From the NCBI GenBank assembly GCA_964621125.1, contig CAZUKZ010000002.1, positions 1 to 56,848 on the forward strand: 56,848 nt of DNA. Direction: 5' to 3'. Positions within the stretch are counted from its first letter, which is position 1. Each line of letters opens with the position of its first letter. The notes under the pieces were generated by a model, which searched no databases, was not told the origin of the DNA, and saw only the letters and a list, made by a program, of their open reading frames with translations. Both the position numbers and the translations under genes were made by a program. Positions 781 through 48,559 of this stretch are shown here, one piece after another. This stretch comes from Candidatus Woesearchaeota archaeon (GTDB lineage: Archaea > Nanobdellota > Nanobdellia > SCGC-AAA011-G17 > GW2011-AR17).

Positions 781-898
781 AGTTTCCGTTCTTTTGTGTA
801 TACTTAATATGCCTTGTTGAAAAAAACATGCTGTTTTTCCGGAGGATACGGAAAGGAGAACATATTAGCTGTAGGATTTTTCATAAGAAAGAGTTAGA

Positions 899-907
899 TT
901 TATATAT
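899..907 (+). promoter_or_regulatory. TATA-like box upstream of the L,D-transpeptidase gene
   Basis: tttatatat lies about 23-31 nt before ATG 930. That spacing would give a leaderless or near-leaderless archaeal transcript. Confidence 0.3.
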
Positions 908-929
908 GAATATATTTCGCCTCTATCCT

Positions 930-1568
930 ATGGGGCAGGACAAAATAGACAGGAGAGAATTTATCACAGGTTTAGCAGCTCTAGCCGCATATTCCACATT
1001 GCCTCAGGGGGCAGAGGCTTTCCGTAAAAGCCGTAAACTTTCCAGGTATAACCAAGACCTTGTTGCAAGGACAATTGATATGAGTAAGAATGGTAAGCCA
1101 GCAATAGTTGTTAACAAACTTGACAAAAACCTTAAGCTGTATATGGATGGTAGAGTCATATTAGATTATCCTATAGCCACTAGCATTAGACTAGGTAACA
1201 AGAGAAGAAAGAATGACCTACGTACACCTGAAAGTAGACACCCTGGAGATAGAAAAGTTATATGGAAGAATTACAAAAGCGAATACTTTCTCTCCTTGTA
1301 CTTAGATTATCCCAATATCTTGGATGCAAAGCTTGGATTAAGAAGAAAAGTTATCAATAGGAGAGAATATAGAAAGATAAAAAGAGCCATTAAGTCTGGT
1401 AAGACCCGGAAGTTGACAAGATTAGGTTACGACATATGCATACATGGTGGCGGGGTGCGGAATGGAAAGTGGACGGCGGGTTGTGTGGCCTTGGAAGATA
1501 AAGATATAGCTTTAGTGTATAACATTTCCCAAGAAGGGACTCCTGTCACAATTGTAAGATATGTCTAA
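930..1568 (+). CDS. L,D-transpeptidase (YkuD-type) with twin-arginine signal peptide
   Basis: Tat-like DRREFITGLAALAAYS...GAEA, then the catalytic-type motif CIHGGGVRNGKWTAGCVAL (His ... Gly-Cys). The ORF is open from 828. I prefer ATG 930 because it gives a canonical Tat N-terminus. Confidence 0.72.
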   Translation: MGQDKIDRREFITGLAALAAYSTLPQGAEAFRKSRKLSRYNQDLVARTIDMSKNGKPAIVVNKLDKNLKLYMDGRVILDYPIATSIRLGNKRRKNDLRTPESRHPGDRKVIWKNYKSEYFLSLYLDYPNILDAKLGLRRKVINRREYRKIKRAIKSGKTRKLTRLGYDICIHGGGVRNGKWTAGCVALEDKDIALVYNISQEGTPVTIVRYV

Positions 1569-2161
1569 GTCTTCTTTATTCTTAAACGGATTATCAGGAC
1601 TATTAGTACTATTAAAAGTATGATAATGCCTATGACTATGGCAGTGTTGCTTGTTGGCTTTTCTTTTGTAACTTGAGGAAGAATATCTTTAACGGTTTTT
1701 TTTGCAATTATTGGTTCTATCAAGCTTTTCTTTGAACAGTCATCAGGACAATTTAGGATATTTTCATCCATGTCACAGAACATGTCCTGGTCACATGTTG
1801 CGTACTCTGATAAGTCTATCGTATGAGCTAGTCTTTCTTCTGAATTGTAAATTCTAACCTCTTTTGCGTAGGCATAATAAGGGATATCCAAATTTACGAA
1901 GATAACATCTTTGTAGGTGTCATAGACTTTAGTGGAAAAATTCAGAGAGTCCAACCGTGATTGATTAAAGGCCAAAGTTATTGCATTGTATCCTTTATCA
2001 GGCATCAATTTCCTATCAGGTCCTACCGCAACTAAAGATATTTCTTCTGTTGAGAAAGTCTTCGTTTTAAAATCCTGTTTTAAGAGTATGCTGTAATGCA
2101 TTGCTGATACTGAAAAAGAGAATACCAAAACTAATATGATTAAGATTATCAATTTTTTCAT
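1565..2161 (-). CDS. secreted Cys-rich protein with C-terminal TM anchor
   Basis: Signal peptide MKKLIILIILVLVFSFSVSA. Cys module CDQDMFCDMDENILNCPDDC. C-terminal helix IVIGIIILLIVLIVLII followed by RLRIKKT. Its ATG shares nt 2161 with the upstream stop codon. Confidence 0.6.
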   Translation of the reverse strand: MKKLIILIILVLVFSFSVSAMHYSILLKQDFKTKTFSTEEISLVAVGPDRKLMPDKGYNAITLAFNQSRLDSLNFSTKVYDTYKDVIFVNLDIPYYAYAKEVRIYNSEERLAHTIDLSEYATCDQDMFCDMDENILNCPDDCSKKSLIEPIIAKKTVKDILPQVTKEKPTSNTAIVIGIIILLIVLIVLIIRLRIKKT

Positions 2162-4311
2162 TATGAATACCTCGATAATTTTTTGATTAATTCATTTTTA
2201 CTATATTCATTGAATTTCCTAGCTTCGGGATTCGAATAATAATAGTAATTCATTATAGAGTTATTAGAAGGCCTAAAGTAATTTTTACATTTTTCATCAC
2301 ACGTTCCACCACAACCTTTAAACTGTGCAGTTTTAAATTTTCTTAGTGCTTCCTCTTTGCTCGTCACACAATTAACACCCGTATAAAAATTCAAATTAGA
2401 ACTCTTCAATACTAAATATTCATCATCTAAATATCCTATTGAATGACCCAATTCATGGGTCATTGTCAGGGGCAAATATGCCTTCGTCGAATAAGTTTTG
2501 AATTTGGCAGGTTTATCAGATAAAGCTACCAATTCATTACCAATCGCATAAGATACAAATTTATCCATTGATATGATAATACTGTGGTCTGCCACATTAC
2601 AGTCTTGCGTTTTTGCTAAATATGCATAAACATCTCTAGGACTATTAGTGCTTGCAAATTTAGCCTTGATCTGTTGAAGTACTTGCCCTTTCTTTAACAG
2701 AAAATAATGTATGTTGAATATGTCCTTAAATTTTGAAAAAGGTTTTATTTGAAATGAGCCATCCAAGATCAATTTTTGGATTCTTTTCCTTAGTTCTGCT
2801 TCATCATTATAACCATCACCCAAGACAATTATATCAAGCTTAGTGTCCGGTGAACCCTGAATACTATATGGTTTACATCCCTTTCCATCATAGACACATA
2901 ACCCCCCCCTACAGATTTGCCCTTTGCCACACCAACTAGTCATACCACACTTTTGTATTTTTATACCATTATATGTTTTCTCTCCATTTACTTTACAGAT
3001 ATAAGTCTTAGCATCGCATTCTTGTCTCCAATACTTTCCATCTTTCCATATAGAGATATCGAAAGAGACTTTATACTCATGCCAAGGGTATTGGCTTCCC
3101 CTGACTTTTACACCATAAACTGAAAAGGTCAATTTTCCAGATTTCCCATATATCCCAGCATAAAGTTTTGCCGGACTTCTAATCTTGTCAATTTTCAAAG
3201 AAAGATAGTCACTTTCATGACCTATAACCTTTATTACAGGATTTTTAATTTTTCCAGGTAAAGAGATTTTGATCTGACTATCTGATATGAAAGCTACGTT
3301 TTTGTTTGATAATTGTGCAGAAACATAATTTCCTAGTTTCTTATATATTGTTAAATCCCCTTTTTCTAACTGCAAAACTGCTCTTTGTTTAGAGTAAATC
3401 TGGATAAATCTTTTTTTGCCAGTACCAGATTTCATCACCTCAAATAATGTTTGATCTGGATATTCTATGACAGCTATATTTGCTCCAAGTACTTTTAATG
3501 ATTGGGCTTTGAACTTTTCTTCATATCTTACAAAACCTCGCCCTAGTTTTTTGAATGAAACATTTCCTAATTTCCCATATTGAGCTTTTGTTGTTGTTGG
3601 TACGCCAGTCAGAATCAAATCTCCCCTTTTACTAGACTTATGTACCACCAAGCCATTAACAGAACTTATCAGTCTCCCTGTACTTTTATCTTCCCTTCCA
3701 TTTTTTAATTTATAAATATACGCTTTAGAGAAAACATTTAAATAAGAAGTTTGAATGCCTGCCGGCGATTCTCTTACCCTAAAATTCATACAAATTTTCT
3801 TAGGATTTGCACATCTTATCCTAAACCCATTTTGTTCAAAAACAGAATTAGCATATGGCCAAATTTCAAGTTCTTTTATTTCCCCACTTTTAACCCTTTT
3901 AGTGGTTTTCCAAATCCCTAACTTATCAGATGTAATAATGACATTTGCATCAGGATATTCAAATTGGGCCTTCCTATTGTTATGCTTCAATACTCTTGTC
4001 CCTGTAGGTAGCTTAATTGAAGGAATAGCACTAATTTTTTCTGTTTTTCCGTGAGATAGGAGCCCTATATCTTTTCCATTTTTCGTAAATTTCAATGCCA
4101 GAACTTTGTCCTGGTCATTCCTTCCGCCAGTATATCCAAGACCGATCTTGAAATAGGAAGGTCTTGTAGATTCATAGATAAGACTAGTTTTGCTGAAGTG
4201 ATCATTAGAGTAGTTTATGCTTCTGGTACCATCAACCATCTCCTTAGCCAAAACTGAAGGAAGCAAGACCATTATCAAGATGCATATGGTAAACATAAAT
4301 TTATACTTCAT
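2161..4311 (-). CDS. secreted zinc metalloprotease, M64 (IgA-peptidase)-like C-terminal domain
   Basis: Signal peptide, then a roughly 450-aa beta-rich N-terminal region and a Cys-rich linker (CKVNGEKTY..CGMTSWCGKGQICRGGLC). This is followed by DIIVLGDGYNDEAE and HELGHSIGYLDDEY (HExxH at 2443-2457). Confidence 0.62.
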   Translation of the reverse strand: MKYKFMFTICILIMVLLPSVLAKEMVDGTRSINYSNDHFSKTSLIYESTRPSYFKIGLGYTGGRNDQDKVLALKFTKNGKDIGLLSHGKTEKISAIPSIKLPTGTRVLKHNNRKAQFEYPDANVIITSDKLGIWKTTKRVKSGEIKELEIWPYANSVFEQNGFRIRCANPKKICMNFRVRESPAGIQTSYLNVFSKAYIYKLKNGREDKSTGRLISSVNGLVVHKSSKRGDLILTGVPTTTKAQYGKLGNVSFKKLGRGFVRYEEKFKAQSLKVLGANIAVIEYPDQTLFEVMKSGTGKKRFIQIYSKQRAVLQLEKGDLTIYKKLGNYVSAQLSNKNVAFISDSQIKISLPGKIKNPVIKVIGHESDYLSLKIDKIRSPAKLYAGIYGKSGKLTFSVYGVKVRGSQYPWHEYKVSFDISIWKDGKYWRQECDAKTYICKVNGEKTYNGIKIQKCGMTSWCGKGQICRGGLCVYDGKGCKPYSIQGSPDTKLDIIVLGDGYNDEAELRKRIQKLILDGSFQIKPFSKFKDIFNIHYFLLKKGQVLQQIKAKFASTNSPRDVYAYLAKTQDCNVADHSIIISMDKFVSYAIGNELVALSDKPAKFKTYSTKAYLPLTMTHELGHSIGYLDDEYLVLKSSNLNFYTGVNCVTSKEEALRKFKTAQFKGCGGTCDEKCKNYFRPSNNSIMNYYYYSNPEARKFNEYSKNELIKKLSRYS

Positions 4312-5260
4312 ATTTCACCTCGTTAAATTCCTTTAAAATCTGTAATACTTCTGTACTGTTAATAGTTTTCTGAGCTTGAACTACCGCTTCATCCCCTGAT
4401 AACTCTAGACTGCTCTTATTTTCTTCTTCCTTAAACAAATCATCTTCACCAGTTATTCCTTTAAGGTCTAATCCAAGAGTGTCGTTACTTGTTATTAACA
4501 TCTTAATCCCAAAAGCAAATACTAGCTCCTTATTCAAGAGTCTAGTTTTATTGTACTTAATGAAATATAAAACAGTGCCATTATGGACATCTAGATAAAA
4601 ATTAATCTTTTTATTGAAAGCAAATGAATTTAATTCACTAAGAAAAGTATCCTGATCTGCTTTTTTTTGGACCCCATATAGTTCCAACGCACTATTATAT
4701 GCTTCTTTTAAATCAGATTCAGTCTTCACTCTAAAGACCGACATCTTCGTTTTCAGTTTATCTTCAGATATTAATATAGGGGCCTTCAATAAAAGCTCAG
4801 TCCCCTTAGCCTTTACCTTAACTGACGCTTTTGGCTTGCCAGCTTTAGTTACCTGAATTTTCGCATTATCACCTGTCAAACATTTATCAATGTTCTCTTC
4901 TACATATGTAGCTATACTGCTTTCTATTGTTGAAAGGCTAGGGACATTTTCCTTCTTCGCATTTAAGTAAAGAGGTATGAAACCATTAGCATATACAACA
5001 GAAGTAGGAGGCTGAACATAATACCCCCCCCTAATTGAAGTGTATAATATCCCCTCTTGTAATAATCTCTTTGTACAACTTTCAAAGATACTTACAATCT
5101 CTTTACTTTGTTCTGTCAATGATCTTAATTGATATTTCTCCTGCAAAATATCTATCTGTTGAGTCTGTGTTGTTATATACAAAATAACTAAAACTATAGA
5201 TAGAAGGATAATCCCCAATATTACAAAAAGTGTTACCTGACCCCTTTTTATCATAATCAA
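4301..5260 (-). CDS. class III signal peptide (type IV pilin-like) protein
   Basis: N-terminus MIMIKRGQVTLFVILGIILLSIVLVILY. Paralog of ORF 9521..10252. Overlaps the downstream gene by 11 nt. Confidence 0.65.
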   Translation of the reverse strand: MIMIKRGQVTLFVILGIILLSIVLVILYITTQTQQIDILQEKYQLRSLTEQSKEIVSIFESCTKRLLQEGILYTSIRGGYYVQPPTSVVYANGFIPLYLNAKKENVPSLSTIESSIATYVEENIDKCLTGDNAKIQVTKAGKPKASVKVKAKGTELLLKAPILISEDKLKTKMSVFRVKTESDLKEAYNSALELYGVQKKADQDTFLSELNSFAFNKKINFYLDVHNGTVLYFIKYNKTRLLNKELVFAFGIKMLITSNDTLGLDLKGITGEDDLFKEEENKSSLELSGDEAVVQAQKTINSTEVLQILKEFNEVKYEV

Positions 5261-5303
5261 TTAAGAACATGAGGATATTTAAATAAATTGCCTAAAGAAC
5301 ACA

Positions 5304-8300
5304 TCATCTTTCAACATTGAATACCCTAGAAAAACCTTTCCCCATACCATTTTTGTCTGTATACTTCATTATAATCCTGTACTTGCCTTCTTTCTTGAAT
5401 TTGGTGAATGCTATCTTAGTGCCGTAAGTAAGCTTACTAAGATCACCATAGTACTGCTTTACCAATTTTATAGGAACTTGAGTGTTAGTTGCCGTATCTA
5501 CTACTTGAATTTTCATATTCTTAAACCCATCCCCCACCCCATCACATGCCCTTAAAGCGGCTGTAATCATCACATCCTTGTTAAGCACAATTTTTGTACC
5601 ATCTTGAACCAATCTAGGAATTTTTGGTGTGACAAATTGACTGATATAGAGTTCTGTACCAAAGTCCTGACCCACATTGACTTGCGTGACAGATGTTGAT
5701 ATCTTTGAACCCTTTGAATCTGTAGCTCTAAAAATGACATGATATAATCCAGGCCTACTTAGCTTGAAAGATGATTCACAGTCATATACTCGATTTTGAT
5801 TAGTATAGCCACACTTTGAAGATTTTCCAGTTGGCGTAATCTTATTCAAATATATATCCTTAATCTCAAACCAATATTTTCCACCACCAAATGGACTTGA
5901 AAAACGTCCTTTTACTGTAATAGGCTTATTTGTACAGGTATAAATATTACTTGGAGACGTAGACCTAAACCCTAACGTCTTTATATCCAACGTTTTACTT
6001 GTTGGGACTGTGTTACCCTTCCAATCATATGCTGTTGCCGTTATACGAACTTTACCACCCTCCTTTAAATAAAGATAGCCATAACACTTCTTCTGTGTCT
6101 TTGATATTGCTTTGCATTTCATAGAAGGCCATCTTGCAAGCTCTACCCCATTTGAAGTTTTGGCTGAAACAGTAGCAAAAGTTATATGATTCGCATTCTT
6201 GTGTGAAAAGATTACTTCTGCCGTCACGTAGTCCCTCAACCCATATGGACTTTTATCCTCGAACTTATATGTCTTGTAAAGCTCCATAGACTCTCCTCTA
6301 AATTTCGATTTCACTTCAAAAAAGAAAGGACATTGTTCTGTTATACCACCACTTTCTATCTCACAAGTATAGAATCCTGGATTCAACCGAATATATGTAC
6401 TGCAGCTATAGGGCCTTTTCTGGTTCTTGACACCAACACAGTATGAAGCCCTAGAACAAGATACGCTCTTTTCCTGAACTGTTGTTCCACCAATTAAAGT
6501 CTTGAATTTGACCTTCGCCTTTTTGAAATATTGAGTTCCATATGGACTGTCTAAGTTAAATCTTAAGAACCTGCCACTTGAAAAAATATCCATAGCCCTA
6601 TAACTACCTCCCCTTATACCAGAGTAATAACTCACATACATCTTTTGAGGAATAGGTTTGAAATTCAAGTTTATTGTTGGATCCCCTAAAAGCTCAAAAG
6701 GATAATAAATAGGTCTTACTTTCCATGAACAACCCCTCTTATATGAATATGGATCACTAGAATATGTGTATGTTAAGGCTCTTCCAATATTAGGATCATT
6801 TAAGAGAGCTTTCATTATGTCCTCCCCATAACCCTCCCTTATGGATAAACCATCATCAGGCATGGCTGTTTCCATTGCTCCAATTGATCCTATACCCCCC
6901 CTTCTCAGAAAGAAGGCCCCATAAAGATAACGATCAAGCTTACCATAACTCTTATAATGCTCAACCCCTAAATGGTAATAATTGTTTGTATTACATGCAG
7001 CAATCACAGAAAAAGCTGAGTTGAACTGAGTTAATTTCTGTGCATGACCCAATATATCAAATCCACCATAGGATAAAGCGTGGCCATCTGAGTAGATAAT
7101 ATCGGAATTGCTGAACTTGTCAGATTCCAATAACCAATCTGTACTTGGATGTTCTGTTTTCCACCTTCTAGTATAACCTTCTGACTCTTCACACCCCAAT
7201 TTTTTCAAAAGAGGCATCGCTTTCTTATCTTCCAAATCATCATCATACATAGGATGGTAAATGCATCTTGTCTTTATACCTTGGCTCTTGAGATTGTTCA
7301 TTATAGGTATAGTATAATATTTCCATCTCAAATTATCATCAAATGAGAACACTGTGTTCTTAACTTTCTGGATCAATGTGTTATAGCTATTAGTGAAAAA
7401 AATAGATCTAGCAAGATAGCTCGAAACATCAGATATTGAAACTCCGTATATTCTTCCCAGGCTTGGGATGTTCTTCATGTTTGCCAATTGCCTATCCACT
7501 GTAGGAATTCCCTTGCCATATTTTAGGTCTGCTGTTTTCATAGGTATTGCCCGTGGTGAGGCGAGAATTGTAAGATATTTATATTTCCCAGTATCCCTTT
7601 TCAAGGCAGTCTTGACTTTTGAAACTGCTTTCTTTGTTTCCGCATAATATGCCCGCCTCTTAGAGTCTTCAGGCAACGTTGGAAGTGGTTCAAATTGCGC
7701 AAAAATTATCCGTTCATTCTTGGCAAAGGCTAATAACGGAGCTAATACAGAATTACTGCAATAAGATCTCTTCAAATTAATCGCTTTTGTCTTACCGGCA
7801 TTAAGCCCTAGTTGATCACATCCTTTCGTCTGATCGATATCATTAGGATTTATCAAAAGGGCTTTATTGGTATTAGGAAACAGCTTATCCTGAAGTTTCT
7901 TAAGATTAGCATTCTTCTCATAAACATCAGCCAAATACACAAATCCTACTGTTATGACTTTCTTTCCTGAAATATACTTGTGCAAATTTGTGTCTGATGT
8001 GAAAACATTCAATTTAGCCGCATATATGCTTGCAAGTATCGCTGCACTGTAATCCACCTCTGAAACTATAACAGTATCATAGCTTTTCCAATAGCTTAAG
8101 TAATTCTTATAACTATAATATTTTACTTCAGATGCTTTAGATAAAGCCAATTTTTTTGTTGAACTTTTATACTTAAAATTAGTCAATTTAGTCGCACCGT
8201 ACTGTTTTATGAATAATTCTGGAGATTCGTAATCCGTAACAGTACCATCCTGTTGGTACAACATCAAAGGATAAGCGCATTTTCCATGAGACTTATGGCA

Positions 8301-9524
8301 GTTTTCTGTACCATCCCACATGACAAGAGGAACCAGCCTTAAAAGATCTGTCCAATGCTCATTTGTTGATATCAAAAAAACCTCTTTGTCTTGATACTTC
8401 TGCATGTTCTTTTTATTTCCACTGCTTGGTCCTACTTTAAGTGAAACTACCTGTGATGCACTATTTTTAGGCATAGGATAATTTATCACTAACGAGGGTT
8501 TACAGCTCTGGTTTTTCTGTGCAAGGATATTACTTGTCTTTATAGACAAATTATCCTTATAGTAATTAATCAACTTAAGTTCTGTTTCATCCATATCAGA
8601 ACAACTACCCACAATTGTGGTACAGCCTTCTTCTGTACAGACATTATTCACTGCCATACCTGAGTATGAAATCTTCAAGTCAGCTGTAGGGGCTTTTTTT
8701 GAATTCAATGAAATTTTATTGTCTGAAAACGTTAATTTTTGATTACCTTGTGTAACTGTAGTTTTACCTTTTTCTCCAATCTCCAGGTATTTCTCTGAGA
8801 GTATGGACCGAGAATTTTCTGTCCTAACCTTAATATCCGAATCGATGATTGCGTTAAATTTATCTAGCTTAATCTCTGTCTTTCCATTAGACACAATCTT
8901 TTCACAGTTATAGACAAAGTTTCCAGAATTAGCTTTACATCCGCATTGTATATATTTCAGTCCTGATCCTTTCACAGTTAAATATGAATCCTTGATCTGA
9001 CCTGAAACTAGATCATATTCACAACTATCCTTCTTAGTCTTCACATTACCGCTTAAGTTCAATCCGAAAATACTCCCTTCCCCTTGCAGACTAATCATGC
9101 CATCCTTTTGAGGCATATATTTTCCTTTTTTGATATAAATCGGAGGGTTTTCAATATCTGTATGAACAGAACCATCCACCTCTACCAAAGTATCAGTCTT
9201 TGTATCGCATTTGAAAGTCGTATTTTCTGAAGGAAAAGCCCCACACCAAAACCCAAAGTCCTTAGTAGACTTACCCTCTATAATTTGAGTCTTAGGGTCA
9301 AAAGTCCCCTTAACCGAGTGCGCACTTCTTGCGTAGCTTGTCCCACCAAGGAAATCCTTCTTAGTAGACTGTATAAGCACTGTACTCGAATCTATCTGGC
9401 ATTTGCCATCTATTTTCCCAAGCAAAGGCTTGACATGAAAATCTCCGCAATTGCCTATATCTTGCGCCAAAACAATTCCCACTAGGAGCAACATTACCAA
9501 TCCTAATGTAATAATCCTTCTCAT
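5304..9524 (-). CDS. 1406-aa secreted surface protein with candidate clan CD (C25/gingipain-like) cysteine peptidase domain and C-terminal Ig-like repeats
   Basis: Signal peptide MRRIITLGLVMLLLVGIVLAQ. Central region has KYLTILASPRAIP, DGH (His codon 7080-7082) and VIAAC (Cys codon 6993-6995). Four C-terminal beta-rich repeats. Confidence 0.55.
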   Translation of the reverse strand: MRRIITLGLVMLLLVGIVLAQDIGNCGDFHVKPLLGKIDGKCQIDSSTVLIQSTKKDFLGGTSYARSAHSVKGTFDPKTQIIEGKSTKDFGFWCGAFPSENTTFKCDTKTDTLVEVDGSVHTDIENPPIYIKKGKYMPQKDGMISLQGEGSIFGLNLSGNVKTKKDSCEYDLVSGQIKDSYLTVKGSGLKYIQCGCKANSGNFVYNCEKIVSNGKTEIKLDKFNAIIDSDIKVRTENSRSILSEKYLEIGEKGKTTVTQGNQKLTFSDNKISLNSKKAPTADLKISYSGMAVNNVCTEEGCTTIVGSCSDMDETELKLINYYKDNLSIKTSNILAQKNQSCKPSLVINYPMPKNSASQVVSLKVGPSSGNKKNMQKYQDKEVFLISTNEHWTDLLRLVPLVMWDGTENCHKSHGKCAYPLMLYQQDGTVTDYESPELFIKQYGATKLTNFKYKSSTKKLALSKASEVKYYSYKNYLSYWKSYDTVIVSEVDYSAAILASIYAAKLNVFTSDTNLHKYISGKKVITVGFVYLADVYEKNANLKKLQDKLFPNTNKALLINPNDIDQTKGCDQLGLNAGKTKAINLKRSYCSNSVLAPLLAFAKNERIIFAQFEPLPTLPEDSKRRAYYAETKKAVSKVKTALKRDTGKYKYLTILASPRAIPMKTADLKYGKGIPTVDRQLANMKNIPSLGRIYGVSISDVSSYLARSIFFTNSYNTLIQKVKNTVFSFDDNLRWKYYTIPIMNNLKSQGIKTRCIYHPMYDDDLEDKKAMPLLKKLGCEESEGYTRRWKTEHPSTDWLLESDKFSNSDIIYSDGHALSYGGFDILGHAQKLTQFNSAFSVIAACNTNNYYHLGVEHYKSYGKLDRYLYGAFFLRRGGIGSIGAMETAMPDDGLSIREGYGEDIMKALLNDPNIGRALTYTYSSDPYSYKRGCSWKVRPIYYPFELLGDPTINLNFKPIPQKMYVSYYSGIRGGSYRAMDIFSSGRFLRFNLDSPYGTQYFKKAKVKFKTLIGGTTVQEKSVSCSRASYCVGVKNQKRPYSCSTYIRLNPGFYTCEIESGGITEQCPFFFEVKSKFRGESMELYKTYKFEDKSPYGLRDYVTAEVIFSHKNANHITFATVSAKTSNGVELARWPSMKCKAISKTQKKCYGYLYLKEGGKVRITATAYDWKGNTVPTSKTLDIKTLGFRSTSPSNIYTCTNKPITVKGRFSSPFGGGKYWFEIKDIYLNKITPTGKSSKCGYTNQNRVYDCESSFKLSRPGLYHVIFRATDSKGSKISTSVTQVNVGQDFGTELYISQFVTPKIPRLVQDGTKIVLNKDVMITAALRACDGVGDGFKNMKIQVVDTATNTQVPIKLVKQYYGDLSKLTYGTKIAFTKFKKEGKYRIIMKYTDKNGMGKGFSRVFNVER

Positions 9525-10252
9525 TTTTTATTTACAGCAAATATCATCTTCGGCGTTGTACTGTTCAGAATAGTTTGAGCATCCTCCAAGGTGAATAGCA
9601 TCTTGTCATCAACAACATCTACCACCACATCTATATTCTTCAGTTCTCCATGCCTTGCGATACATGAAACACAAAGCTCTTCTTTTGCTACCTCATCCAA
9701 AACTGAATTAGTAACTGAATATAAGCTATCCAAGTTCACTTTTACATCCTGTTTGAATACAGACAATGTCTCTTTAGTCTTTCCTAATTCCACAGTGATA
9801 GGCCAATCTGTTGTCAATGTTACTTGGCCCTTTGTTATCTTCGCCTGAGTTTTAGGTTTTGTCATTATCTTTGAACTTTGCATGCAAGTTCCAATCGACC
9901 TATCGATAAAAGTACTTAGCTCTTTCTCCAAATCTGATAGCCTATAAAATCTTTTTCTGTTGTTAGCATACAAATAATTGGTGTTGAACTTAGTATCTGA
10001 ATAACCTCGAGTAACCGCATTTTTCCCGCCTTGCTTCCCAATCGTAATTATCCCTTTTTCAACAGTCTGCTTAAGGCATCCTTTCACAAGGCCCTGCATC
10101 TTTTTGGCTTCTTTAGAAACAGCTATAGACTCCTGCTTTGCAGCGAAGCCAAACGCCTCACTTATCTCTTCTTTGAAATATAAAGTGAGAGCTAGAGCTG
10201 AAATAATTAATATACCCAAAATTATGAATAATGTAACCTGCCCTCTTTTCAT
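9521..10252 (-). CDS. class III signal peptide (type IV pilin-like) protein
   Basis: N-terminus MKRGQVTLFIILGILIISALALTLYF. Its stop overlaps the start of the giant ORF (9521-9524). Confidence 0.65.
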   Translation of the reverse strand: MKRGQVTLFIILGILIISALALTLYFKEEISEAFGFAAKQESIAVSKEAKKMQGLVKGCLKQTVEKGIITIGKQGGKNAVTRGYSDTKFNTNYLYANNRKRFYRLSDLEKELSTFIDRSIGTCMQSSKIMTKPKTQAKITKGQVTLTTDWPITVELGKTKETLSVFKQDVKVNLDSLYSVTNSVLDEVAKEELCVSCIARHGELKNIDVVVDVVDDKMLFTLEDAQTILNSTTPKMIFAVNKK

Positions 10253-10326
10253 GACTGATTAAAAGGATGGAATAACACCTTATAAAGCTTACCCCTAAGA
10301 ATTAATTTCCGCAAAAGCCGGACAAG

Positions 10327-11267: not shown

Positions 11268-12488
11268 ATGGCTAAGAATGAACAAGTTGTTATAGTTAAA
11301 AAGCATGAGAAAGAATATAAGGGTTTTGATATAAGAAGATTAATCCCAAAAGATTTCGTAATCCTATCAAACATCTTAGGACTAATATTCATCATACTTA
11401 TTATAGTCCTTGGTATCTATGCCTACGGATGGTCACAATCTTCCGATGGACAAACTACAATCGGTAAGGCTATTAATTTGGTATCGTCTGCAAAAACTTA
11501 TATCAACCCCTCCTATTGGGGTGCAAGGATACAAAAAATTGGAAATGTCTGGCAGACAGACACTGACACTAAAAGTACAAAGAAAGGCGTGATATTCAAT
11601 AGCTTTTCAGCTTCTGTCGATAATGTCGTCCAAGGATCTATGATACAAGTGCCGTTTGGCCTTGAACTTAAAAATGTAGATGTATCTGTCCTACCTATAA
11701 ACCTATCATGCTCCCTCAAAGATAAAGACAAGAAGACAATACATGGCACAATCATCCCGAAAAATCCATTAGTTGCCTATGGAGGAGCAATCGATCAGAG
11801 TGCTTATTGCAGAATTGAAGGCAAACATACAAAAGGTTTGAAAGGGAAAGTAGAGATTGAAGGGAGAGTCGGATTCCCTTTTGAGACAAAAGGTGCCACG
11901 CTTAAAGTTTATTTCACAACACAAAAAGTGAAAGACTTGCTTGACCCTTACAAGAAGATGAAACCTGATGAGTTTTCTTCACATTTTTTCAAGTATTATA
12001 AGATTCAAGAGAAACAACCAATCTCTGTGAAATATAAAGGAGAGCCTGTGGCAGTCGGAATGGCGGCCAGGTATAGTCAAAGGCAACCAGTAATACTCAG
12101 CCAAACAGAAAATCCGATAATAGGAATTTCTATTGATAACAAATGGGATGGTAATATGACCCAAGTAAATAATTTCATCCTATACCTCCCTAAAGGAGTC
12201 ACCATAAACCAAAAGATATCAAAAAATCCAAATATGGATTGCCCTTTCATCGAAAGGAGAAGTGGAAGCAAGTATGTTGAATACATCGTAGATTCAAAAA
12301 TCAAAGACCAAATAACATTAGGTATAGCAAAATCAATGGCTTTCACATGCTGGTTGAATGTAGAAGATGGGTTTGTCGGAACTGGAAATTACTTAACCCA
12401 AAATTACAAAGTTGACTTTTCATACTACTATGATATTGAACCTCAAAAAGCGGTACTGACTGTCAAAGAAGTAGGAGCAAAAAAATGA
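11268..12488 (+). CDS. membrane-anchored secreted protein, member 1 of a tandem paralog trio
   Basis: N-terminal TM helix ILSNILGLIFIILIIVLGIYAYGW. Four Cys outside the anchor. C-terminal pattern KVDFSYYYDIEPQKAVLTVKE is shared with the next two ORFs. Confidence 0.6.
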   Translation: MAKNEQVVIVKKHEKEYKGFDIRRLIPKDFVILSNILGLIFIILIIVLGIYAYGWSQSSDGQTTIGKAINLVSSAKTYINPSYWGARIQKIGNVWQTDTDTKSTKKGVIFNSFSASVDNVVQGSMIQVPFGLELKNVDVSVLPINLSCSLKDKDKKTIHGTIIPKNPLVAYGGAIDQSAYCRIEGKHTKGLKGKVEIEGRVGFPFETKGATLKVYFTTQKVKDLLDPYKKMKPDEFSSHFFKYYKIQEKQPISVKYKGEPVAVGMAARYSQRQPVILSQTENPIIGISIDNKWDGNMTQVNNFILYLPKGVTINQKISKNPNMDCPFIERRSGSKYVEYIVDSKIKDQITLGIAKSMAFTCWLNVEDGFVGTGNYLTQNYKVDFSYYYDIEPQKAVLTVKEVGAKK

Positions 12489-13438
12489 AAAAAATCGCTG
12501 TATTATTAATACTTCTAGTTTTTATCAGTGGATGTACATGGATCTATAAGCTCCCATTTATGCCTTCACCAGCACAAAGAGGCATTAGCATCAACTATGG
12601 TAGTTCGAACGCAGTAGATACTACAATAGCATATCCTAAATCATCCGGAATTGTATATGAGGAATATAAAAAATTATCTCCAGTGATAAGAGTTACTAAT
12701 TCAGGAGATTATAAAAAACCAAAAGGTTCTATTTGTGTTTCAGGCCTAGATAAGAGTATCTTTGGAGGGTTCTCTGGTTGTGACTGTCAAATATTCCCTC
12801 AAAAGACATATGAAGATGTTGTGTTCAAATCAGAAGACATAACATTTCCTAGCTATACTATAACCTTAGATAAAGATCAGAAAGAGGCAGATTTCACCAT
12901 AACTGCAATCACAAGATTCAATTACCAAACAAAAGGTAAAGTTAAACTGTGCCTGAAAAAAGATATATATGGATCTTCTGGGTGCACGATTGAAGTGGGA
13001 AGCAGCAAAGGGGTAGAAAAGCTCATGTCAACCACAAGCGGACCATTAAAAATAAAATCAGTTAAACAATCACTTAATCCAGAACCAGGAAACACATTCT
13101 CTATTATACTTACCATCGTTATAGAGCAACAATCTAAAGGAAGAATAATCGATAAGGAAAACATCAATGACCTCTGCGTACCACAGACAAAACCCAAAAG
13201 TCTAATATACGCCAGGGTTAAAAATATGCCATTAGTAAGTATGGTTTGTAATCCACAGAAGCTTGACAGCACCAATCAAGTGACCATCATCTGTAGGGGA
13301 TCGGGGTTGAGCCTGTTTGATGGTTCAGGCCAATATCTTTTACCAAATGAAAATTATCAGCCTAATGTAGAGGTCGAACTTAATTATGCATTTGAGACTG
13401 TTGACTCAAATATATTTAAAGTGAAGAAAACCATCTAA
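12485..13438 (+). CDS. putative lipoprotein, member 2 of tandem paralog trio
   Basis: ATGA overlap with the upstream gene. Lipobox-like LLVFISGC. Eight further Cys. C-terminal VELNYAFETVDSNIFKVKK. Confidence 0.6.
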   Translation: MKKIAVLLILLVFISGCTWIYKLPFMPSPAQRGISINYGSSNAVDTTIAYPKSSGIVYEEYKKLSPVIRVTNSGDYKKPKGSICVSGLDKSIFGGFSGCDCQIFPQKTYEDVVFKSEDITFPSYTITLDKDQKEADFTITAITRFNYQTKGKVKLCLKKDIYGSSGCTIEVGSSKGVEKLMSTTSGPLKIKSVKQSLNPEPGNTFSIILTIVIEQQSKGRIIDKENINDLCVPQTKPKSLIYARVKNMPLVSMVCNPQKLDSTNQVTIICRGSGLSLFDGSGQYLLPNENYQPNVEVELNYAFETVDSNIFKVKKTI

Positions 13439-13481
13439 CGAAAGAATTATAAAGATGTATAATAGAATAAATAGTAACTTA

Positions 13482-13489
13482 AAGGAGGT
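13482..13489 (+). promoter_or_regulatory. Shine-Dalgarno sequence
   Basis: AAGGAGGT lies 7 nt before ATG 13497. Confidence 0.6.
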
Positions 13490-13496
13490 CATATTT

Positions 13497-14408
13497 ATGA
13501 GATTAGGTCTAAAATCATTCATCTTACTACTAATTGTCCTGTTCATTGCTGGTTGCGGAACACAAACTACAACACCTACAGGATACTATAAGTATACAGG
13601 GAGCCAAGCTGTTGGAGCTAGCTTTGCAAAAGATGCGCCAACTTCATCTTCTGTAGATACATATTCAAAAAATGAAAATATCCCAATAACAGTCGAGTTG
13701 ACAAATAGGCTGACAGAAGACATATCTGCCGGGAAAGTCAAAATAAGGCTAACTGGAGATGCTGCTATATCCAATTTTTTTACAGGAGCAAAAGAAGTAT
13801 CAGCGACTAAGTTAGATGCAATCGATACCACAACAGGTGGAACAACAACTGAAGAGATAGATCTAGGGCCAGTGAAGTACGTAGGTGACCTTTCGGCTAA
13901 AATATCTAAAGTTATTACGGGAAAATATTGCTATGAAGTGCCTGTGAAAGCTAAGGCTAATCTCTTTTATACAGATATAGTGAAAAATGTAGGGACAAAC
14001 CTTCCAAAAGGATCGAACCCACCATCCAGGGTACAAGTCACCAAGCTTACGCAAGGAGTTGTCAAAGTTGACAAAGCAACAAACAAGGGTTCATTAAAGT
14101 TCAAGATTACAGTAGAGGACAAGGGTAGCGGACTTATCATAAACGGTATGTCGGAATGCTTTAAGTATCACGGCAAAAGACCACGAGAAACATTACAGGT
14201 CACTGTCAAAGGAGCTTATCCTATAACTTGTGAAAGGCAAGGCCAAGCAACTCTATCTACAGATACAGGAAAGAAGGAAATTGACTGTACAGTATCCAAT
14301 ATTGATGTTGCCAATCTAGGCAAGCAAGCCAGTGAATTATCAATAACCTTAAGCAATTTTGCTTATGAGGAATCATTGCAGCCTGTAACTATCTATCTAG
14401 AACCGTAA
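13497..14408 (+). CDS. putative lipoprotein, member 3 of tandem paralog trio
   Basis: I prefer the start at 13497 because of the strong SD; the ORF is open from 13455. Lipobox-like VLFIAGC. Four further Cys. C-terminal ITLSNFAYEESLQPVTIYLE. Confidence 0.6.
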   Translation: MRLGLKSFILLLIVLFIAGCGTQTTTPTGYYKYTGSQAVGASFAKDAPTSSSVDTYSKNENIPITVELTNRLTEDISAGKVKIRLTGDAAISNFFTGAKEVSATKLDAIDTTTGGTTTEEIDLGPVKYVGDLSAKISKVITGKYCYEVPVKAKANLFYTDIVKNVGTNLPKGSNPPSRVQVTKLTQGVVKVDKATNKGSLKFKITVEDKGSGLIINGMSECFKYHGKRPRETLQVTVKGAYPITCERQGQATLSTDTGKKEIDCTVSNIDVANLGKQASELSITLSNFAYEESLQPVTIYLEP

Positions 14409-25358: not shown

Positions 25359-25904
25359 ATGAAAAGAGCAGTATGGAAAAATAAATCAAATGGGCAACTC
25401 TGCGTTACAATCCCTCAAAATTCTGGATTTAAAGAAGGAGACATAGCAGATATAAGAAAAGAAAAAATAAGCAAAATAGTTTATACAAGTGTAGCAGCGG
25501 ATTTATTTCATTATGGACAACTTAGGCTACTTAAAGAAGCAAATAATTTAGGTGATTTTCATATCTGTGGAGTATTGACTGATAGGGCTCTAAAGGCGTA
25601 TAAGGGTAAACCTATATCTGGATTTAGAGACAGAATAGCAATAATCTCGTCACTAAGAAATATAGATATGGTTATGTCTCAAAATGATTTGAATCCAACA
25701 GATAATATAAGAAAAATCCGTGAACAATTCAATGATGTTGATATATGTGTTGTCTATGGTTCAAATTGGAAGAAAGTGCCTGGCGAAGAATACCTTAAAA
25801 AGACTGGTTGTGAAATCATACACTTACCATTCTATGAAAAACTTTCCAGAAAGAATATAATCAAAAAAATAATCCAAATAAATAAAAAGGAGAATGAAAA
25901 ATGA
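25359..25904 (+). CDS. AbrB/SpoVT-like N-terminal module fused to cytidylyltransferase-like domain with degenerate HxGH (HYGQ)
   Basis: [26 protein letters not shown] resembles a swapped-hairpin motif. It is followed by [21 protein letters not shown]. Confidence 0.5.
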
Positions 25905-27199
25905 AAAAGGTTTATGTAGGAATGTCTGCTGATTTATTACATCATGGTCATATAAATATAATTGATGTTGCAAGGAAAAAAGGGGAAATTACGGTTGGAT
26001 TATTGACTGATGGAGCCATTGCAAGCTTTAAAAGGGTTCCCCTTATACCTTTTGAACAAAGAAAAAAAATCATGGAAAATATAAGGGGCGTGGTGAGAGT
26101 TATACCTCAGGAAACTCTGGACTATGTTCCAAATTTGAGACTTTTAAAACCAGATTATGTTGTGCATGGGGATGATTGGAAAACTGGCGTTCAAAAACAA
26201 ACAAGAGCTAATGTTATTGAAGCTCTTAATGAATGGGGTGGACAATTAATAGAACCAGAGTATACTGCAGGCATATCATCAACAAATCTAATTAAAAATA
26301 TTATGGAAATAGGCACCACCCCAGATATTAGACGAAATAAATTAAAAAGACTAATTCAACTTAAACCATTAGTTAGAATTTTAGAAGTACATAATGGTAT
26401 AACTGGAAGGATAGTTGAAAAAACAAAGGTTGAGAAAAATGGTTCTGTCTGTGAATTTGATGGGATGTGGTCTAGTAGCTTAACAGACTCTACTTCCAAA
26501 GGGAAACCAGATACTGGCGCTGTTGATATCACTTCAAGATTACAGAGTATTGAACAAATATTAGATATAACAACAAAACCCATGATTGTTGATGCAGATA
26601 ATGGTGGTTTGGCTGAACATTTTATTTTTACTGTTAAGACACTAGAGCGTTATGGAGTTTCTGCAGTTATTATAGAAGACAAGACTGGAATAAAAAGGAA
26701 TTCACTTTTTGGAACTGATGTAGAACAAACACAAGATAACATAGAAAACTTTTGTAATAAGATAAGAAAAGGCAAACGTGCACAAGTTACAAAAGATTTC
26801 ATGATAATAGCAAGAATTGAAAGTTTAATATTAAAAAAAGGCATGGATTCTGCATTAGAAAGAGCAAAAAAATATATAGAGTCCGGAGCTGATGGAATAA
26901 TGATCCATAGCAAAGAGAAAGATGGTAGAGAGATACTGGGATTCTGTGAAGAATATAAAAAACTCCAGAACAAGGTCCCCTTAGTACTCGTACCCAGTAC
27001 ATACTCGCATCTTACTGAAGAAGAATTAGTGAATGCTGGAGCAAATATTGTAATATATGCCAACCATTTGTTAAGGAGTGCTTATCCCCCCATGGTCAAA
27101 ACAGCTAAAACAATTTTAAAACATGGTAGGTGCCATGAAGCAAACGAGTATTGTATGCCAATAAAGGAGATTCTAACCCTAATTCCAGGTGGTAATTGA
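25901..27199 (+). CDS. pepM: bifunctional cytidylyltransferase / phosphoenolpyruvate mutase (Fom1-like architecture)
   Basis: N-terminal [18 protein letters not shown] (HxGH). C-terminal [18 protein letters not shown], and the PEP-mutase signature [10 protein letters not shown] (EDKx5NS, 26675-26704). Confidence 0.82.
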
Positions 27200-28320: not shown

Positions 28321-28323
28321 AAA

Positions 28324-48459: not shown

Positions 48460-48559
48460 TGTTAATATACACTTGTAAAGTATATTTATAAAAGTTTGTT
48501 TACACGACATGACAGACACGCGTAGCATTTATAAGGACATTTTACTTCTTTTTTGACAT

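What the first reader, a model, noticed from the sequence alone, without database searches (positions are those of the whole stretch)
1565..10252. Coupled secretome operon: two type-IV-pilin-like paralogs bracket a 1406-aa clan-CD-like protease, followed by an M64-like metalloprotease and a Cys-rich anchored protein
Seen in the sequence: five minus-strand ORFs run from 10252 to 1565 with overlapping stop and start codons (9521-9524, 4301-4311, shared nt 2161). The only gap is a 43-nt AT-rich stretch at 5261-5303 with a TATA-like run. Both ORFs flanking the giant gene begin with KRGQVTLF(I/V)ILGI plus a hydrophobic helix. They also align further along their length (..C.K...E.GI....GG.., ..ST(F/Y)(I/V)(D/E)..I..C.., ..SVF(K/R)..V..), so they are paralogs. 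The giant ORF has a signal peptide and a central KYLTILASPRAIP / DGH (His815) / VIAAC (Cys844) arrangement. That spacing resembles the His/Cys dyad of gingipain-type clan CD peptidases. It also has four C-terminal beta-rich repeats. The next ORF carries HELGHSIGYLDDEY behind a Cys-rich linker. The last ORF has a signal peptide, the CDQDMFCDMDENILNCPDDC module and a C-terminal TM anchor.

Established knowledge: (K/R)G|Q followed by a hydrophobic helix is the archaeal class III (prepilin) signal. In Sulfolobus, such signals also direct non-pilus surface assemblies (the bindosome).

Inference: the pilin-like subunits may scaffold or display two proteases at the cell surface. That would be a candidate host-interaction or feeding device for a small-genome archaeon. 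I know of no described system with this composition, but I cannot search.
Basis: partly seen in the sequence, partly recalled or inferred. Interest (0 to 1): 0.75.

Follow-up and report, generated by a model that had tools for sequence, protein, structure and literature searches.

The report
Prepilin-like adaptor plus secreted protease cassettes
A small-genome (DPANN) archaeon carries two back-to-back copies of a widespread but undescribed gene pair: a small prepilin-like membrane protein followed by a large exported enzyme, here a gingipain-like and an M64-like protease. This gives a testable rule for how these archaea may arm their cell surface.

Summary
The five overlapping minus-strand genes are real.

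- **Giant protein (B):** a secreted gingipain-type (C25, clan CD) cysteine peptidase homologue. His815 and Cys844 are conserved in about 97% of relatives. Its family profile hits Kgp and RgpB, and its AlphaFold model best matches RgpB, Kgp and separase.
- **Fourth protein (D):** an M64-type zinc peptidase homologue.
- **The two "pilin-like" paralogues (A, C):** members of a large unannotated DPANN family. The N-terminus (K/R)(G/A/S)|QVT(L/I)F is nearly invariant and fits the archaeal class III (prepilin) signal. The family matches no pilin Pfam model and no PDB fold.

What is new: in 80 other genome loci, such a gene is almost always followed by a gene for a large Sec-signal protein of variable family, typically with a 4-nt overlap. 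The window therefore holds two tandem cassettes (adaptor plus cargo), not one five-part machine. Orthologues of the giant gene keep only the first paralogue. The second paralogue–M64–anchor trio recurs on its own in another genome.

Most likely the small protein is a prepilin-like membrane tether or adaptor for its cognate exported enzyme. Cleavage, binding and any filament formation are untested.

The parts
9521..10252 (-). Gene A: 243-aa member of the 'A family' (prepilin-like adaptor), the cognate upstream partner of B
   Evidence: ORF. About 100 relatives, all 'hypothetical', from Nanoarchaeota, Woesearchaeota and Pacearchaeota. AlphaFold model pLDDT 93.6, pTM 0.80. Its closest globular-domain relative is the gene upstream of B orthologue P0009.
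10172..10252 (-). A residues 1-27: class-III-type signal, MKRG|QVTLFIILGILIISALALTLYF
   Evidence: Across 61 family members: -2 is K/R in 61/61, -1 is G/A/S in 54/6/1, +1 is Q in 61/61 and +5 is F in 61/61. The leader is 3-18 aa.
10280..10286 (-). TATA-like tttataa, about 31 nt upstream of the ATG of A (putative archaeal promoter, near-leaderless mRNA)
   Evidence: Read directly from the sequence. This is inference only.
5304..9524 (-). Gene B: 1406-aa secreted C25-like (gingipain-type, clan CD) cysteine peptidase homologue
   Evidence: ORF and signal peptide MRRIITLGLVMLLLVGIVLA|Q. 464 relatives of the central module. Orthologues are P0008 (51% identity), P0009 (40%) and P0010 (34%).
6495..8447 (-). 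B residues 360-1010: conserved ~600-aa module, made of two alpha/beta domains followed by the C25-like catalytic domain
   Evidence: 97 of 155 retrieved relatives carry the whole module collinearly. AlphaFold pTM 0.83, pLDDT 71.7. Foldseek top hits are RgpB 4ief (E 3e-6), Kgp 4rbm and separase, all with probability 1.0.
7080..7082 (-). Codon of His815 (putative catalytic His)
   Evidence: His in 141 of 146 aligned relatives, followed by Gly in 128 and Ala in 14, including B. It aligns with the Kgp HG motif.
6993..6995 (-). Codon of Cys844 (putative catalytic Cys)
   Evidence: Cys in 143 of 146 relatives, preceded by Ala in 109. It aligns with the second Cys of Kgp GNCC.
5307..6494 (-). B residues 1011-1406: beta-rich, Cys-containing C-terminal region with no membrane anchor
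   Evidence: Sequence. Only a weak internal repeat was found. Sub-threshold Ig-like Pfam hit.
5255..5303 (-). B-C intergenic spacer with TATA-like tttatttaaata (possible internal promoter for C-D-E)
   Evidence: Sequence. This fits C-D-E being a separate module.
4301..5254 (-). Gene C: 317-aa A-family paralogue (MIKRG|QVTLFVILG...), the cognate upstream partner of D
   Evidence: Paralogy with A, E 3e-18. Its closest relative is L016:377-1237, which precedes the D orthologue.
2161..4311 (-). Gene D: 716-aa secreted protein with a beta-rich N-terminal half, a Cys-rich linker (431-481) and a C-terminal M64-like zinc peptidase domain (about 470-716, DNA 2164-2904; HELGH codons at 2443-2457)
   Evidence: Pfam M64 24.8 bits against a cutoff of 26. 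Orthologue L016 scores 33.1 bits. The profile hits M64 structures 3p1v (E 2e-7) and 4df9 (E 4e-4) with HExxH...DEY aligned.
1565..2161 (-). Gene E: 198-aa protein with a signal peptide, a small domain, a 4-Cys module (123-142) and a C-terminal TM anchor (174-194); a conserved companion of D
   Evidence: Orthologue directly after the D orthologue in L016: E 7e-21, 30% identity over the full length. A weaker relative follows the D-like gene in L095.
828..1568 (+). Convergent YkuD-fold (L,D-transpeptidase-like) gene with a Tat-like leader; a conserved neighbour of the A-B module
   Evidence: Pfam YkuD E 9.5e-14. A convergent YkuD gene abuts the B orthologue in L003/L004, L005 and L006.

Best explanation
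The region holds two tandem copies of a two-gene cassette that is widespread in DPANN archaea. The copies are A-B and C-D, and C-D has a third gene, E.

In each cassette the first gene encodes a small 'A family' protein. It has a short basic leader, a near-invariant (K/R)(G/A/S)|QVT(L/I)F hydrophobic N-terminal helix and a conserved extracytoplasmic alpha/beta domain with one conserved Cys pair. The second gene is translationally coupled to the first. It encodes a large protein exported through Sec with an ordinary cleavable signal peptide and no membrane anchor of its own.

**Shown**
- B is a gingipain-type (C25, clan CD) cysteine peptidase homologue with its His/Cys dyad intact.
- D is an M64-type zinc metallopeptidase homologue.
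- E is a conserved, C-terminally anchored companion of D.
- The A-family/cargo pairing recurs across many genomes with many cargo families.

**Inferred mechanism**
- The A-family protein is inserted via Sec and its leader is removed by the archaeal prepilin (class III signal) peptidase.
- It stays in or just above the membrane through its N-terminal helix.
- Its globular head binds the cognate cargo as the cargo emerges. The cargo is thereby tethered, and possibly helped to mature, on the cell surface.
- Two proteases are thus displayed, plausibly for feeding on or interacting with a host or prey cell.
For: **Gene structure**
- Overlaps of 4, 11 and 1 nt.

**Identity of B**
- Relatives pass the Pfam C25 gathering score.
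- His815 is conserved in 141/146 relatives and Cys844 in 143/146.
- The family profile hits Kgp at E 4e-6 and RgpB at 1.4e-3, with the HG and AC motifs aligned.
- The AlphaFold model's top PDB matches are RgpB, Kgp and separase.

**Identity of D**
-.

**A family**
- About 100 relatives, none annotated.
- The N-terminal motif statistics fit the archaeal SPase III rule: positive residue at -2, small residue at -1, and no need for E at +5 (PMC3387779).
- The model is confident (pLDDT 93.6) and has a 70-residue N-terminal helix.

**Cassette**
- Of 81 A-family genes in 80 GTDB genome loci, 72 have a downstream same-strand ORF. 67 of those start within 30 nt or overlap, and 25 have the ATGA 4-nt overlap.
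- 60 of 63 partners of at least 300 aa have a signal-peptide-like N-terminus, against 68 of 184 control ORFs from the same loci.
- Partners fall into at least six unrelated families. Some carry PG_binding_1, YkuD or Ig-like domains.
- The nearest relative of an A-family globular domain has a partner of the same family in 41 of 48 evaluable cases.

**Modularity**
- A-like plus B-like genes occur without C-D-E in L003/L004, L005 and L006.
- C-like, D-like and E-like genes occur together in L016.
Against: - No binding, cleavage or localisation evidence exists.
- No prepilin peptidase, PilB-like or PilC-like gene is in the 57-kb window. A motif scan found none in about 1.07 Mb of flanks around roughly 90 cassettes. 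That scan was crude.
- None of 61 family members hits a Pfam pilin or class-III-signal model.
- Neither Foldseek nor a sequence profile finds a pilin or any other solved fold.
- One A-like paralogue (L016:4372-5001) lacks the motif and looks like a plain signal anchor. A D-like/E-like pair exists without a C-like gene. The adaptor is therefore not always required.
- No common domain was found among cargo families that could serve as a shared docking site.
- Ascertainment bias: family members were collected through a word index and a DNA pattern built on the N-terminal motif. This inflates the apparent invariance of the motif.
Confidence: 0.5

Rival explanations
1. The A-family protein is an uncleaved, N-terminally anchored extracytoplasmic foldase or maturation factor dedicated to its cargo. 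The analogy is to lipase-specific foldases (Lif) or PrtM/PrsA. It does not display the cargo, which is released after folding.
For: Tight one-to-one gene coupling, and co-variation of the A globular domain with cargo family. No pilin fold or pilin Pfam match. No linked pilus machinery. One paralogue has a plain signal anchor. The cargoes are large, Cys-rich multidomain proteins that may need help folding outside the cell.
Against: A plain anchor would not need an invariant Q at +1 and F at +5 with K/R at -2 and G/A/S at -1 in a family that is otherwise about 23% identical. The cargoes have no anchor of their own, so release would waste them for a tiny cell. That second point is inference only.
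Confidence: 0.2
2. A-family proteins are true type-IV-filament subunits. They polymerise through their shared N-terminal helices, and each paralogue carries or caps a different enzyme, giving a pilus or pseudopilus decorated with hydrolases.
For: Class-III-type N-terminus with the extreme conservation typical of pilin alpha1-N segments. A long N-terminal helix in the model. Several paralogues per genome share the helix but differ in their heads. In about 1.1 Mb of loci the motif occurs only on proteins with the A-like head. The large Sec-signal partner recalls minor pilins with PilY1.
Against: No assembly ATPase, platform or peptidase gene was found near any cassette. The head is alpha/beta with three extra helices and gives no pilin match. 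The N-terminus is unlike the canonical pilin-like ORFs next to the A orthologue in L004, which read KKG|VSPLVATILLVG. Heads of 215 to over 700 aa are large for a filament subunit.
Confidence: 0.12
3. The A-family protein is a membrane-bound inhibitor or immunity factor. It protects the cell's own surface from the hydrolase encoded next to it.
For: Protease-inhibitor and toxin-immunity genes are often adjacent and co-vary (general knowledge). Co-variation with the partner was seen here.
Against: Partners include Ig-like, PG-binding and many domain-less proteins, not only hydrolases. One conserved fold inhibiting unrelated catalytic types (Cys peptidase, Zn peptidase) is unlikely. The gene is upstream rather than downstream.
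Confidence: 0.08
4. The adjacency reflects only co-expression of envelope proteins, with no physical or functional partnership. The five genes are simply a cluster of unrelated secreted proteins.
For: DPANN loci are rich in secreted proteins: 37% of control ORFs look signal-bearing by my heuristic. No interaction has been tested.
Against: The order, strand and 4-nt overlap are kept across dozens of genomes and at least six cargo families. The A head co-varies with the cargo family.
Confidence: 0.1

Closest known systems
Gingipains RgpB/Kgp of Porphyromonas gingivalis (MEROPS C25, clan CD) and PorU
   Same: The catalytic module of B shares the His-then-Cys dyad in H(G/A)...AC motifs. It also shares profile similarity (E 4e-6 to Kgp) and the predicted fold, with RgpB and Kgp as top Foldseek hits. 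Like gingipains, it is followed by beta-rich Ig-like regions.
   Different: B itself does not reach the Pfam C25 threshold. It is archaeal and has a roughly 340-aa unknown N-terminal domain plus two extra alpha/beta domains ahead of the catalytic part. It has no T9SS C-terminal domain. It is coupled to an upstream prepilin-like gene. Its specificity pocket was not analysed.
Peptidase M64 (IgA peptidase of Clostridium ramosum; Bacteroides structures 3P1V and 4DF9)
   Same: The C-terminal domain of D aligns over about 240 residues, with HExxH followed by (L/A)DEY.
   Different: D scores 24.8 bits, below the Pfam cutoff of 26. It carries a roughly 430-aa unknown N-terminal half and a Cys-rich linker, and it sits between a prepilin-like gene and a small anchored protein.
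Sulfolobus bindosome (class III signal sugar-binding proteins assembled by Bas proteins)
   Same: Class-III-type signals are used for a non-motility, non-adhesion surface function. The idea of functionalising the surface through pilin-like N-termini is shared (PMC3387779; bioRxiv 10.64898/2026.04.22.720090).
   Different: In the bindosome the cargo itself carries the class III signal. Here the cargoes have ordinary Sec signal peptides and a separate small protein carries the class-III-type N-terminus. No Bas-like assembly genes are nearby.
Bacterial minor pilins with PilY1/PilC-type tip proteins (and T2SS pseudopilus tips)
   Same: Small prepilin-type proteins are encoded next to a large Sec-exported protein that they are thought to present.
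   Different: No homology to PilY1 was detected (no Pfam hits). There is a single adaptor gene rather than a set of minor pilins. No assembly genes are linked. The organisms are archaeal.
SlaA/SlaB of Sulfolobales, and lipase/Lif foldase pairs
   Same: These are operon pairs of one large exported protein and one small membrane-anchored partner with a helical stalk. The partner anchors the large protein (SlaB) or folds it (Lif).
   Different: No sequence or fold similarity was found. SlaB is anchored at its C-terminus, and Lif lacks a class-III-like motif. Here many paralogous pairs occur per genome with different cargoes.

Membership tests
Peptidase C25 / clan CD (gingipain-type) | Catalytic His followed in sequence by catalytic Cys, in H-G and A-C type motifs | tested here: met
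   His815 (DGHA) and Cys844 (IAAC). His is conserved in 141/146 relatives and Cys in 143/146. They align with Kgp HGS and NCC.
Peptidase C25 / clan CD (gingipain-type) | Significant match to the curated family model (Pfam PF01364 at or above 23 bits) | tested here: inconclusive
   B alone gives no hit. Its relatives do pass: P0009 (40% identical) 26.9 bits, P0102 69 bits, P0019 59 bits. A profile of the B family hits Kgp at E 4e-6.
Peptidase C25 / clan CD (gingipain-type) | Caspase/gingipain alpha/beta fold | tested here: met
   AlphaFold model pTM 0.83. Foldseek: RgpB 4ief E 3.3e-6, Kgp 4rbm E 1.4e-4, separases 9hn0 and 5u1s, all probability 1.0. pLDDT is only 71.7, so local detail is uncertain.
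Peptidase C25 / clan CD (gingipain-type) | Peptidase activity and P1 specificity | not testable with these tools
   Needs biochemistry.
Peptidase M64 | HExxH zinc motif followed by the conserved xDEY segment | tested here: met
   HELGHSIGYLDDEY at residues 619-632. It aligns with HEFGHSFGGLADEY of 3p1v.
Peptidase M64 | Match to Pfam PF09471 at or above 26 bits | tested here: inconclusive
   D scores 24.8 bits, E 1.5e-5. Orthologue L016 scores 33.1 bits. The two-sequence profile hits 3p1v at E 2e-7 over 239 residues.
Archaeal class III (prepilin-type) signal peptide proteins | Short basic leader, K/R at -2, small residue at -1, then about 20 hydrophobic residues | tested here: met
   A is MKRG|QVTLFIILGILIISALALTLYF and C is MIKRG|QVTLFVILG. 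The rule is taken from PMC3387779.
Archaeal class III (prepilin-type) signal peptide proteins | Cleavage by PibD/FlaK/EppA, with such a peptidase present in the genome | not testable with these tools
   No A24-type gene is in the window. The rest of the genome could not be read. Cleavage needs proteomics.
Type IV pilins / archaeal pilins | Membership of a known pilin sequence family (for example Pfam PF07790 or PF04021) | tested here: not met
   0 of 61 family members hit any pilin model at E up to 0.01. NCBIfam gave nothing.
Type IV pilins / archaeal pilins | Pilin fold: N-terminal alpha1 helix packed on a beta-sheet head | tested here: inconclusive
   The model has helix 3-73 followed by an alpha/beta head with seven strands and three helices. 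There is no significant PDB match: best E 9e-3, TM below 0.2. The sequence profile finds no pilin.
Type IV pilins / archaeal pilins | Genetic linkage to assembly ATPase, platform or peptidase genes | tested here: not met
   None in the window. The motif scan of about 1.07 Mb around cassettes found no A24 motif and only one doubtful Walker-A hit. This is a weak test, and pilin genes are often unlinked.
Sulfolobus-type bindosome | The displayed cargo proteins themselves carry class III signals | tested here: not met
   B, D and E, and 60 of 63 large partners elsewhere, have ordinary signal-peptide-like N-termini.

The most novel reading that the evidence does not exclude
The many A-family paralogues of one cell share an almost identical N-terminal helix but carry different heads. 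They may co-assemble through that helix into one heteropolymeric pseudopilus or surface platform. Each subunit would hold a different exported enzyme or adhesin (C25 protease, M64 protease, PG-binding proteins and others). That would be a modular 'enzyme-display filament' used by Woesearchaeota, Pacearchaeota and Nanoarchaeota to attack or feed on host cells.
Probability: 0.12. Interest if true: 0.85.

Novelty: new variant of a known kind. Interest (0 to 1): 0.62.

Why it matters
DPANN archaea make up a large share of archaeal diversity. They depend on other cells, and most of their lineage-specific proteins have no annotation. The only surface enzymes previously highlighted are the large lytic-transglycosylase proteins (PMC8204110).

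This finding gives a simple, repeated genomic rule: a (K/R)G|QVTLF protein followed by an overlapping gene for a large Sec-signal protein. The rule flags dozens of probable surface effectors per lineage and points to a shared way of handling them. It also assigns two of them to known protease clans.

If the adaptor really tethers or presents its cargo, it would be a new use of the prepilin pathway. It would also be a practical handle, through a conserved N-terminal tag and cognate pairs, for finding and testing host-interaction proteins in uncultured archaea.

Tried and rejected
- **Word-index homologue searches with B and C alone** found only the proteins themselves. The exhaustive HMMER search and a four-sequence profile were needed.
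- **Direct database scans of the window proteins gave nothing useful.** Pfam and NCBIfam gave nothing for A, B, C or E. PDB sequence search with B alone gave nothing.
- **A shared N-terminal docking domain among cargo families** was not found. jackhmmer from five seeds stayed within each family.
- **The five-gene order as a conserved unit** was rejected. Orthologous loci show A-B only, or C-D-E only.
- **A protease-specific role for the A family** was rejected. None of the 72 partners from the 80 genome loci carries the C25 module.
- **Viral or mobile origin** has no support. There are no relatives in 2.9 million viral contigs.
- **My first internal-repeat test on the C-terminus of B** used overlapping windows and was invalid. 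The redone test shows only a weak pair.
- **Finding which partner carries YkuD** by phmmer with the window's YkuD protein returned nothing.
- **Literature searches** for DPANN with gingipain/C25, or with pilin-like surface cassettes, found no description.

Full report
**1. Observation**

The ORF scan shows five minus-strand ORFs: A 9521-10252, B 5304-9524, C 4301-5260, D 2161-4311 and E 1565-2161. They overlap by 4, 11 and 1 nt, and there is one 43-nt gap. The gap contains tttatttaaata about 26 nt before the ATG at 5254. A tttataa lies about 31 nt before the ATG of A. Both would suit archaeal TATA boxes with nearly leaderless transcripts, but this is inference. Gene callers start C at ATG 5254, giving 317 aa. 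All quoted motifs are at the stated residues. A and C are paralogues: E 3e-18, 25% identity over about 250 residues. The 'four C-terminal repeats' of B could not be shown. Only one weak pair was found (one search was a flawed first attempt).

**2. Organism**

- The window encodes a diphthamide synthase fusion and a class I aminoacyl-tRNA synthetase (W/Y family, Pfam tRNA-synt_1b), among other genes.
- Loci with orthologues of B carry archaeal ribosomal proteins L37e and S8e and an LSM protein.
- Relatives of A are labelled Nanoarchaeota, Woesearchaeota or Pacearchaeota.
- The host is therefore a DPANN archaeon. G+C is about 36%.

**3. Protein B**

Alone, B matches nothing in Pfam, NCBIfam or the PDB. 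The word-index search also found only B itself. An exhaustive HMMER search with residues 340-1010 found 464 relatives.

- Several relatives pass the Pfam Peptidase_C25 gathering score, including the 40%-identical orthologue P0009.
- In a jackhmmer alignment, His815 is conserved in 141/146 relatives and Cys844 in 143/146. The clan CD neighbours fit: H followed by G or A, and C preceded by A.
- A 24-sequence profile of the catalytic part hits Kgp (4tkx, 4rbm; E 4e-6), RgpB (1cvr, 4ief) and PorU. The HG and CC motifs are aligned.
- An AlphaFold model of residues 360-1010 (pTM 0.83, pLDDT 71.7) has RgpB, Kgp and separases as its best PDB matches.

It has a Sec-type signal peptide and no membrane anchor.

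**4. Proteins D and E**

- D scores 24.8 bits on Pfam M64, against a cutoff of 26.
- Its orthologue in L016 scores 33.1 bits.
- A two-sequence profile hits the M64 structures 3p1v (E 2e-7) and 4df9, with HExxH...DEY aligned.
- E has a full-length orthologue directly after the D orthologue in L016 (E 7e-21). A weaker relative follows a D-like gene in L095.

**5. The A family**

A profile built from A, C and two orthologues found about 100 proteins. All are 'hypothetical', most are 240-260 aa, and none has a Pfam domain in the A-like part.

- In a 61-member alignment with about 23% mean identity, the N-terminus is nearly fixed: K at -3, K/R at -2 (61/61), G/A/S at -1 (54/6/1), Q at +1 (61/61), V, T, L, then F at +5 (61/61). 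The leader is 3-18 residues.
- This fits the archaeal class III signal rule, in which -2, -1 and +1 matter and E at +5 is not needed (PMC3387779).
- Two Cys residues (59 and 123 in A) are also conserved.
- AlphaFold gives a confident model (pLDDT 93.6, pTM 0.80) with helix 3-73 and an alpha/beta head.
- Foldseek against the PDB finds nothing significant. A sequence profile also finds nothing. None of the 61 members hits a pilin Pfam family.
- The family therefore has a prepilin-like N-terminus but cannot be filed as a known pilin.

Caveat: both the word index and the DNA pattern used to collect members depend on this N-terminus, so its invariance is partly ascertained. In an independent check, a profile of the head alone found 105 ORFs in about 1.1 Mb of loci. 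Of these, 99 have the motif, two have variants, two are truncated, and one paralogue seen in two loci (L016 and L094) truly lacks it. Conversely, the motif occurs only on proteins with this head.

**6. The cassette**

A scan of one genome per GTDB species found more than 596 pattern matches. Of these, 255 were confirmed and the best 80 were kept as loci.

- Of 81 A-family genes in those loci, 72 have a same-strand ORF starting at or near their stop codon. 50 overlap, 25 of them by exactly 4 nt, and 67 start within 30 nt.
- The partners are large, with a median of about 700 aa and a maximum above 2200 aa.
- 60 of 63 partners of at least 300 aa have a signal-peptide-like N-terminus, against 68 of 184 control ORFs (this is a heuristic).
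- The partners form at least six unrelated families with no detectable common N-terminal domain.
- Most have no Pfam hit. A few carry PG_binding_1, YkuD, Ig-like or fn3 domains.
- The nearest relative of an A-family head has a partner of the same family in 41 of 48 cases. This shows stable cognate pairs, although shared ancestry alone could also produce it.
- Three further contexts reached through exact protein look-ups show the same pattern.
- No relatives occur in viral contigs.

**7. Modularity of the window**

- Orthologues of B in three other lineages (P0008, P0009, P0010) have an A-like gene directly upstream where the contig extends that far. P0009's neighbour begins MRRSQVTIF, and P0010's is the 240-aa protein P0157. 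The contig carrying P0008 starts inside the gene, so its upstream region is not available.
- In all three, a convergent YkuD gene lies directly downstream, with no C, D or E.
- The C-like, D-like and E-like genes occur together in L016, and in the identical L094.
- The closest head relative of A is the P0009-linked gene. The closest head relative of C is the L016 gene.
- The window is therefore A-B plus an inserted C-D-E, possibly with its own promoter in the 43-nt gap.

**8. Mechanism**

*Shown:* the identities of B and D, the class-III-type N-terminus, the tight and recurrent pairing, and the cognate co-variation.

*Inferred:* the A-family protein is processed by the prepilin peptidase and remains membrane-embedded through its N-terminal helix. 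Its head holds the cognate Sec-exported protein at the surface. I give this about 0.5.

*Rivals:*
- a dedicated foldase with an uncleaved anchor (0.2);
- a true filament subunit (0.12);
- an inhibitor or immunity factor (0.08);
- mere co-expression (0.1).

*Points against the pilus reading:* no assembly or peptidase genes are in the window. A crude motif scan found none in the flanks of about 90 cassettes.

**9. Comparison with the literature**

- Archaeal class III signals on non-pilus proteins are known from the bindosome. A 2026 preprint reports that they are widespread on substrate-binding proteins. In those cases the cargo itself carries the signal.
- Castelle et al. 2021 describe a module of 51 unannotated families specific to Woesearchaeota and Pacearchaeota. 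They highlight large extracellular lytic-transglycosylase proteins, but the text I read mentions no such gene pairs.
- Searches for DPANN with gingipain/C25 or with pilin-like surface proteins found no description.

**10. Verdict**

The 'single five-part device' reading should be replaced by 'two tandem adaptor-cargo cassettes of a widespread DPANN type'. The proteases are new members of known clans. The adaptor family and its pairing rule appear undescribed, and they resemble known pilin-like presentation systems in principle only.

Noticed in passing
window 828-1568 (+); L003:5354-6025, L005:4376-5119, L006:3222-3974: A YkuD-fold (L,D-transpeptidase-like) protein with a Tat-like RREF leader lies convergent to the operon. 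The same convergent gene abuts the giant C25-like gene in three distant orthologous loci. This is odd for an archaeon without murein and may target bacterial cell walls.
   Followed up: partly
window 32477-34705 (+): A B12-binding radical SAM gene appears to be interrupted by an intein (Intein_splicing plus an HTH domain between the B12-binding and radical SAM parts).
   Followed up: no
window 25901-29457 (+): A PEP mutase fused to a cytidylyltransferase, followed by a TPP-dependent decarboxylase and an Fe-alcohol dehydrogenase. This looks like a phosphonate pathway. It sits among glycosyltransferase and sugar-nucleotide genes, which suggests phosphonate-decorated surface glycans.
   Followed up: no
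window 54621-56549 (+) and 46339-48528 (-): A full-length bacterial-type RelA/SpoT homologue (HD, RelA_SpoT, TGS, ACT domains), and a fusion of asparagine synthase with diphthamide synthase.
   Followed up: no
window 11268-14408 (+): Three consecutive genes of 406, 317 and 317 aa have no family match. The last two have lipobox-like (S/A)GC N-termini and show no detectable mutual similarity. They may be further envelope proteins divergent from the operon.
   Followed up: partly
L017, L027, L039, L043, L054, L058, L071, L085, L086, L088, L089 (A-family gene near position 7000 in each): A long variant of the A family (620-800 aa, same N-terminal motif) is always followed by a related family of very large Sec-signal proteins (about 1850-2240 aa) with no Pfam match.
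   Followed up: partly
L016:4372-5001 (also L094:5614-6243): Directly after the C-D-E-like trio lies a further A-like gene. Its head matches the family, but its N-terminus is a plain basic signal anchor without the (K/R)G|QVTLF motif.
   Followed up: partly
L004:271-1185: Canonical archaeal pilin-like ORFs (KKG|VSPLVATILLVG..., one apparently split) sit just upstream of the A orthologue. That organism therefore uses ordinary class III signals too, with an N-terminal helix quite different from the A family's.
   Followed up: no
L093:2061-3872 (-) beside L093:4001-7276 (+): A 603-aa protein with an A-like head and a variant N-terminus (MKMKA|QVEFIVII) is divergently adjacent to another C25-like gene (P0022). 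It is followed on its own strand by a 449-aa gene.
   Followed up: no
L012, L045, L061, L083 (record titles): Four of the 80 A-family loci come from bins labelled Methanosarcinales, Alphaproteobacteria or Patescibacteria. They are short contigs, so these are probably mis-binned DPANN DNA rather than true occurrences outside DPANN.
   Followed up: no
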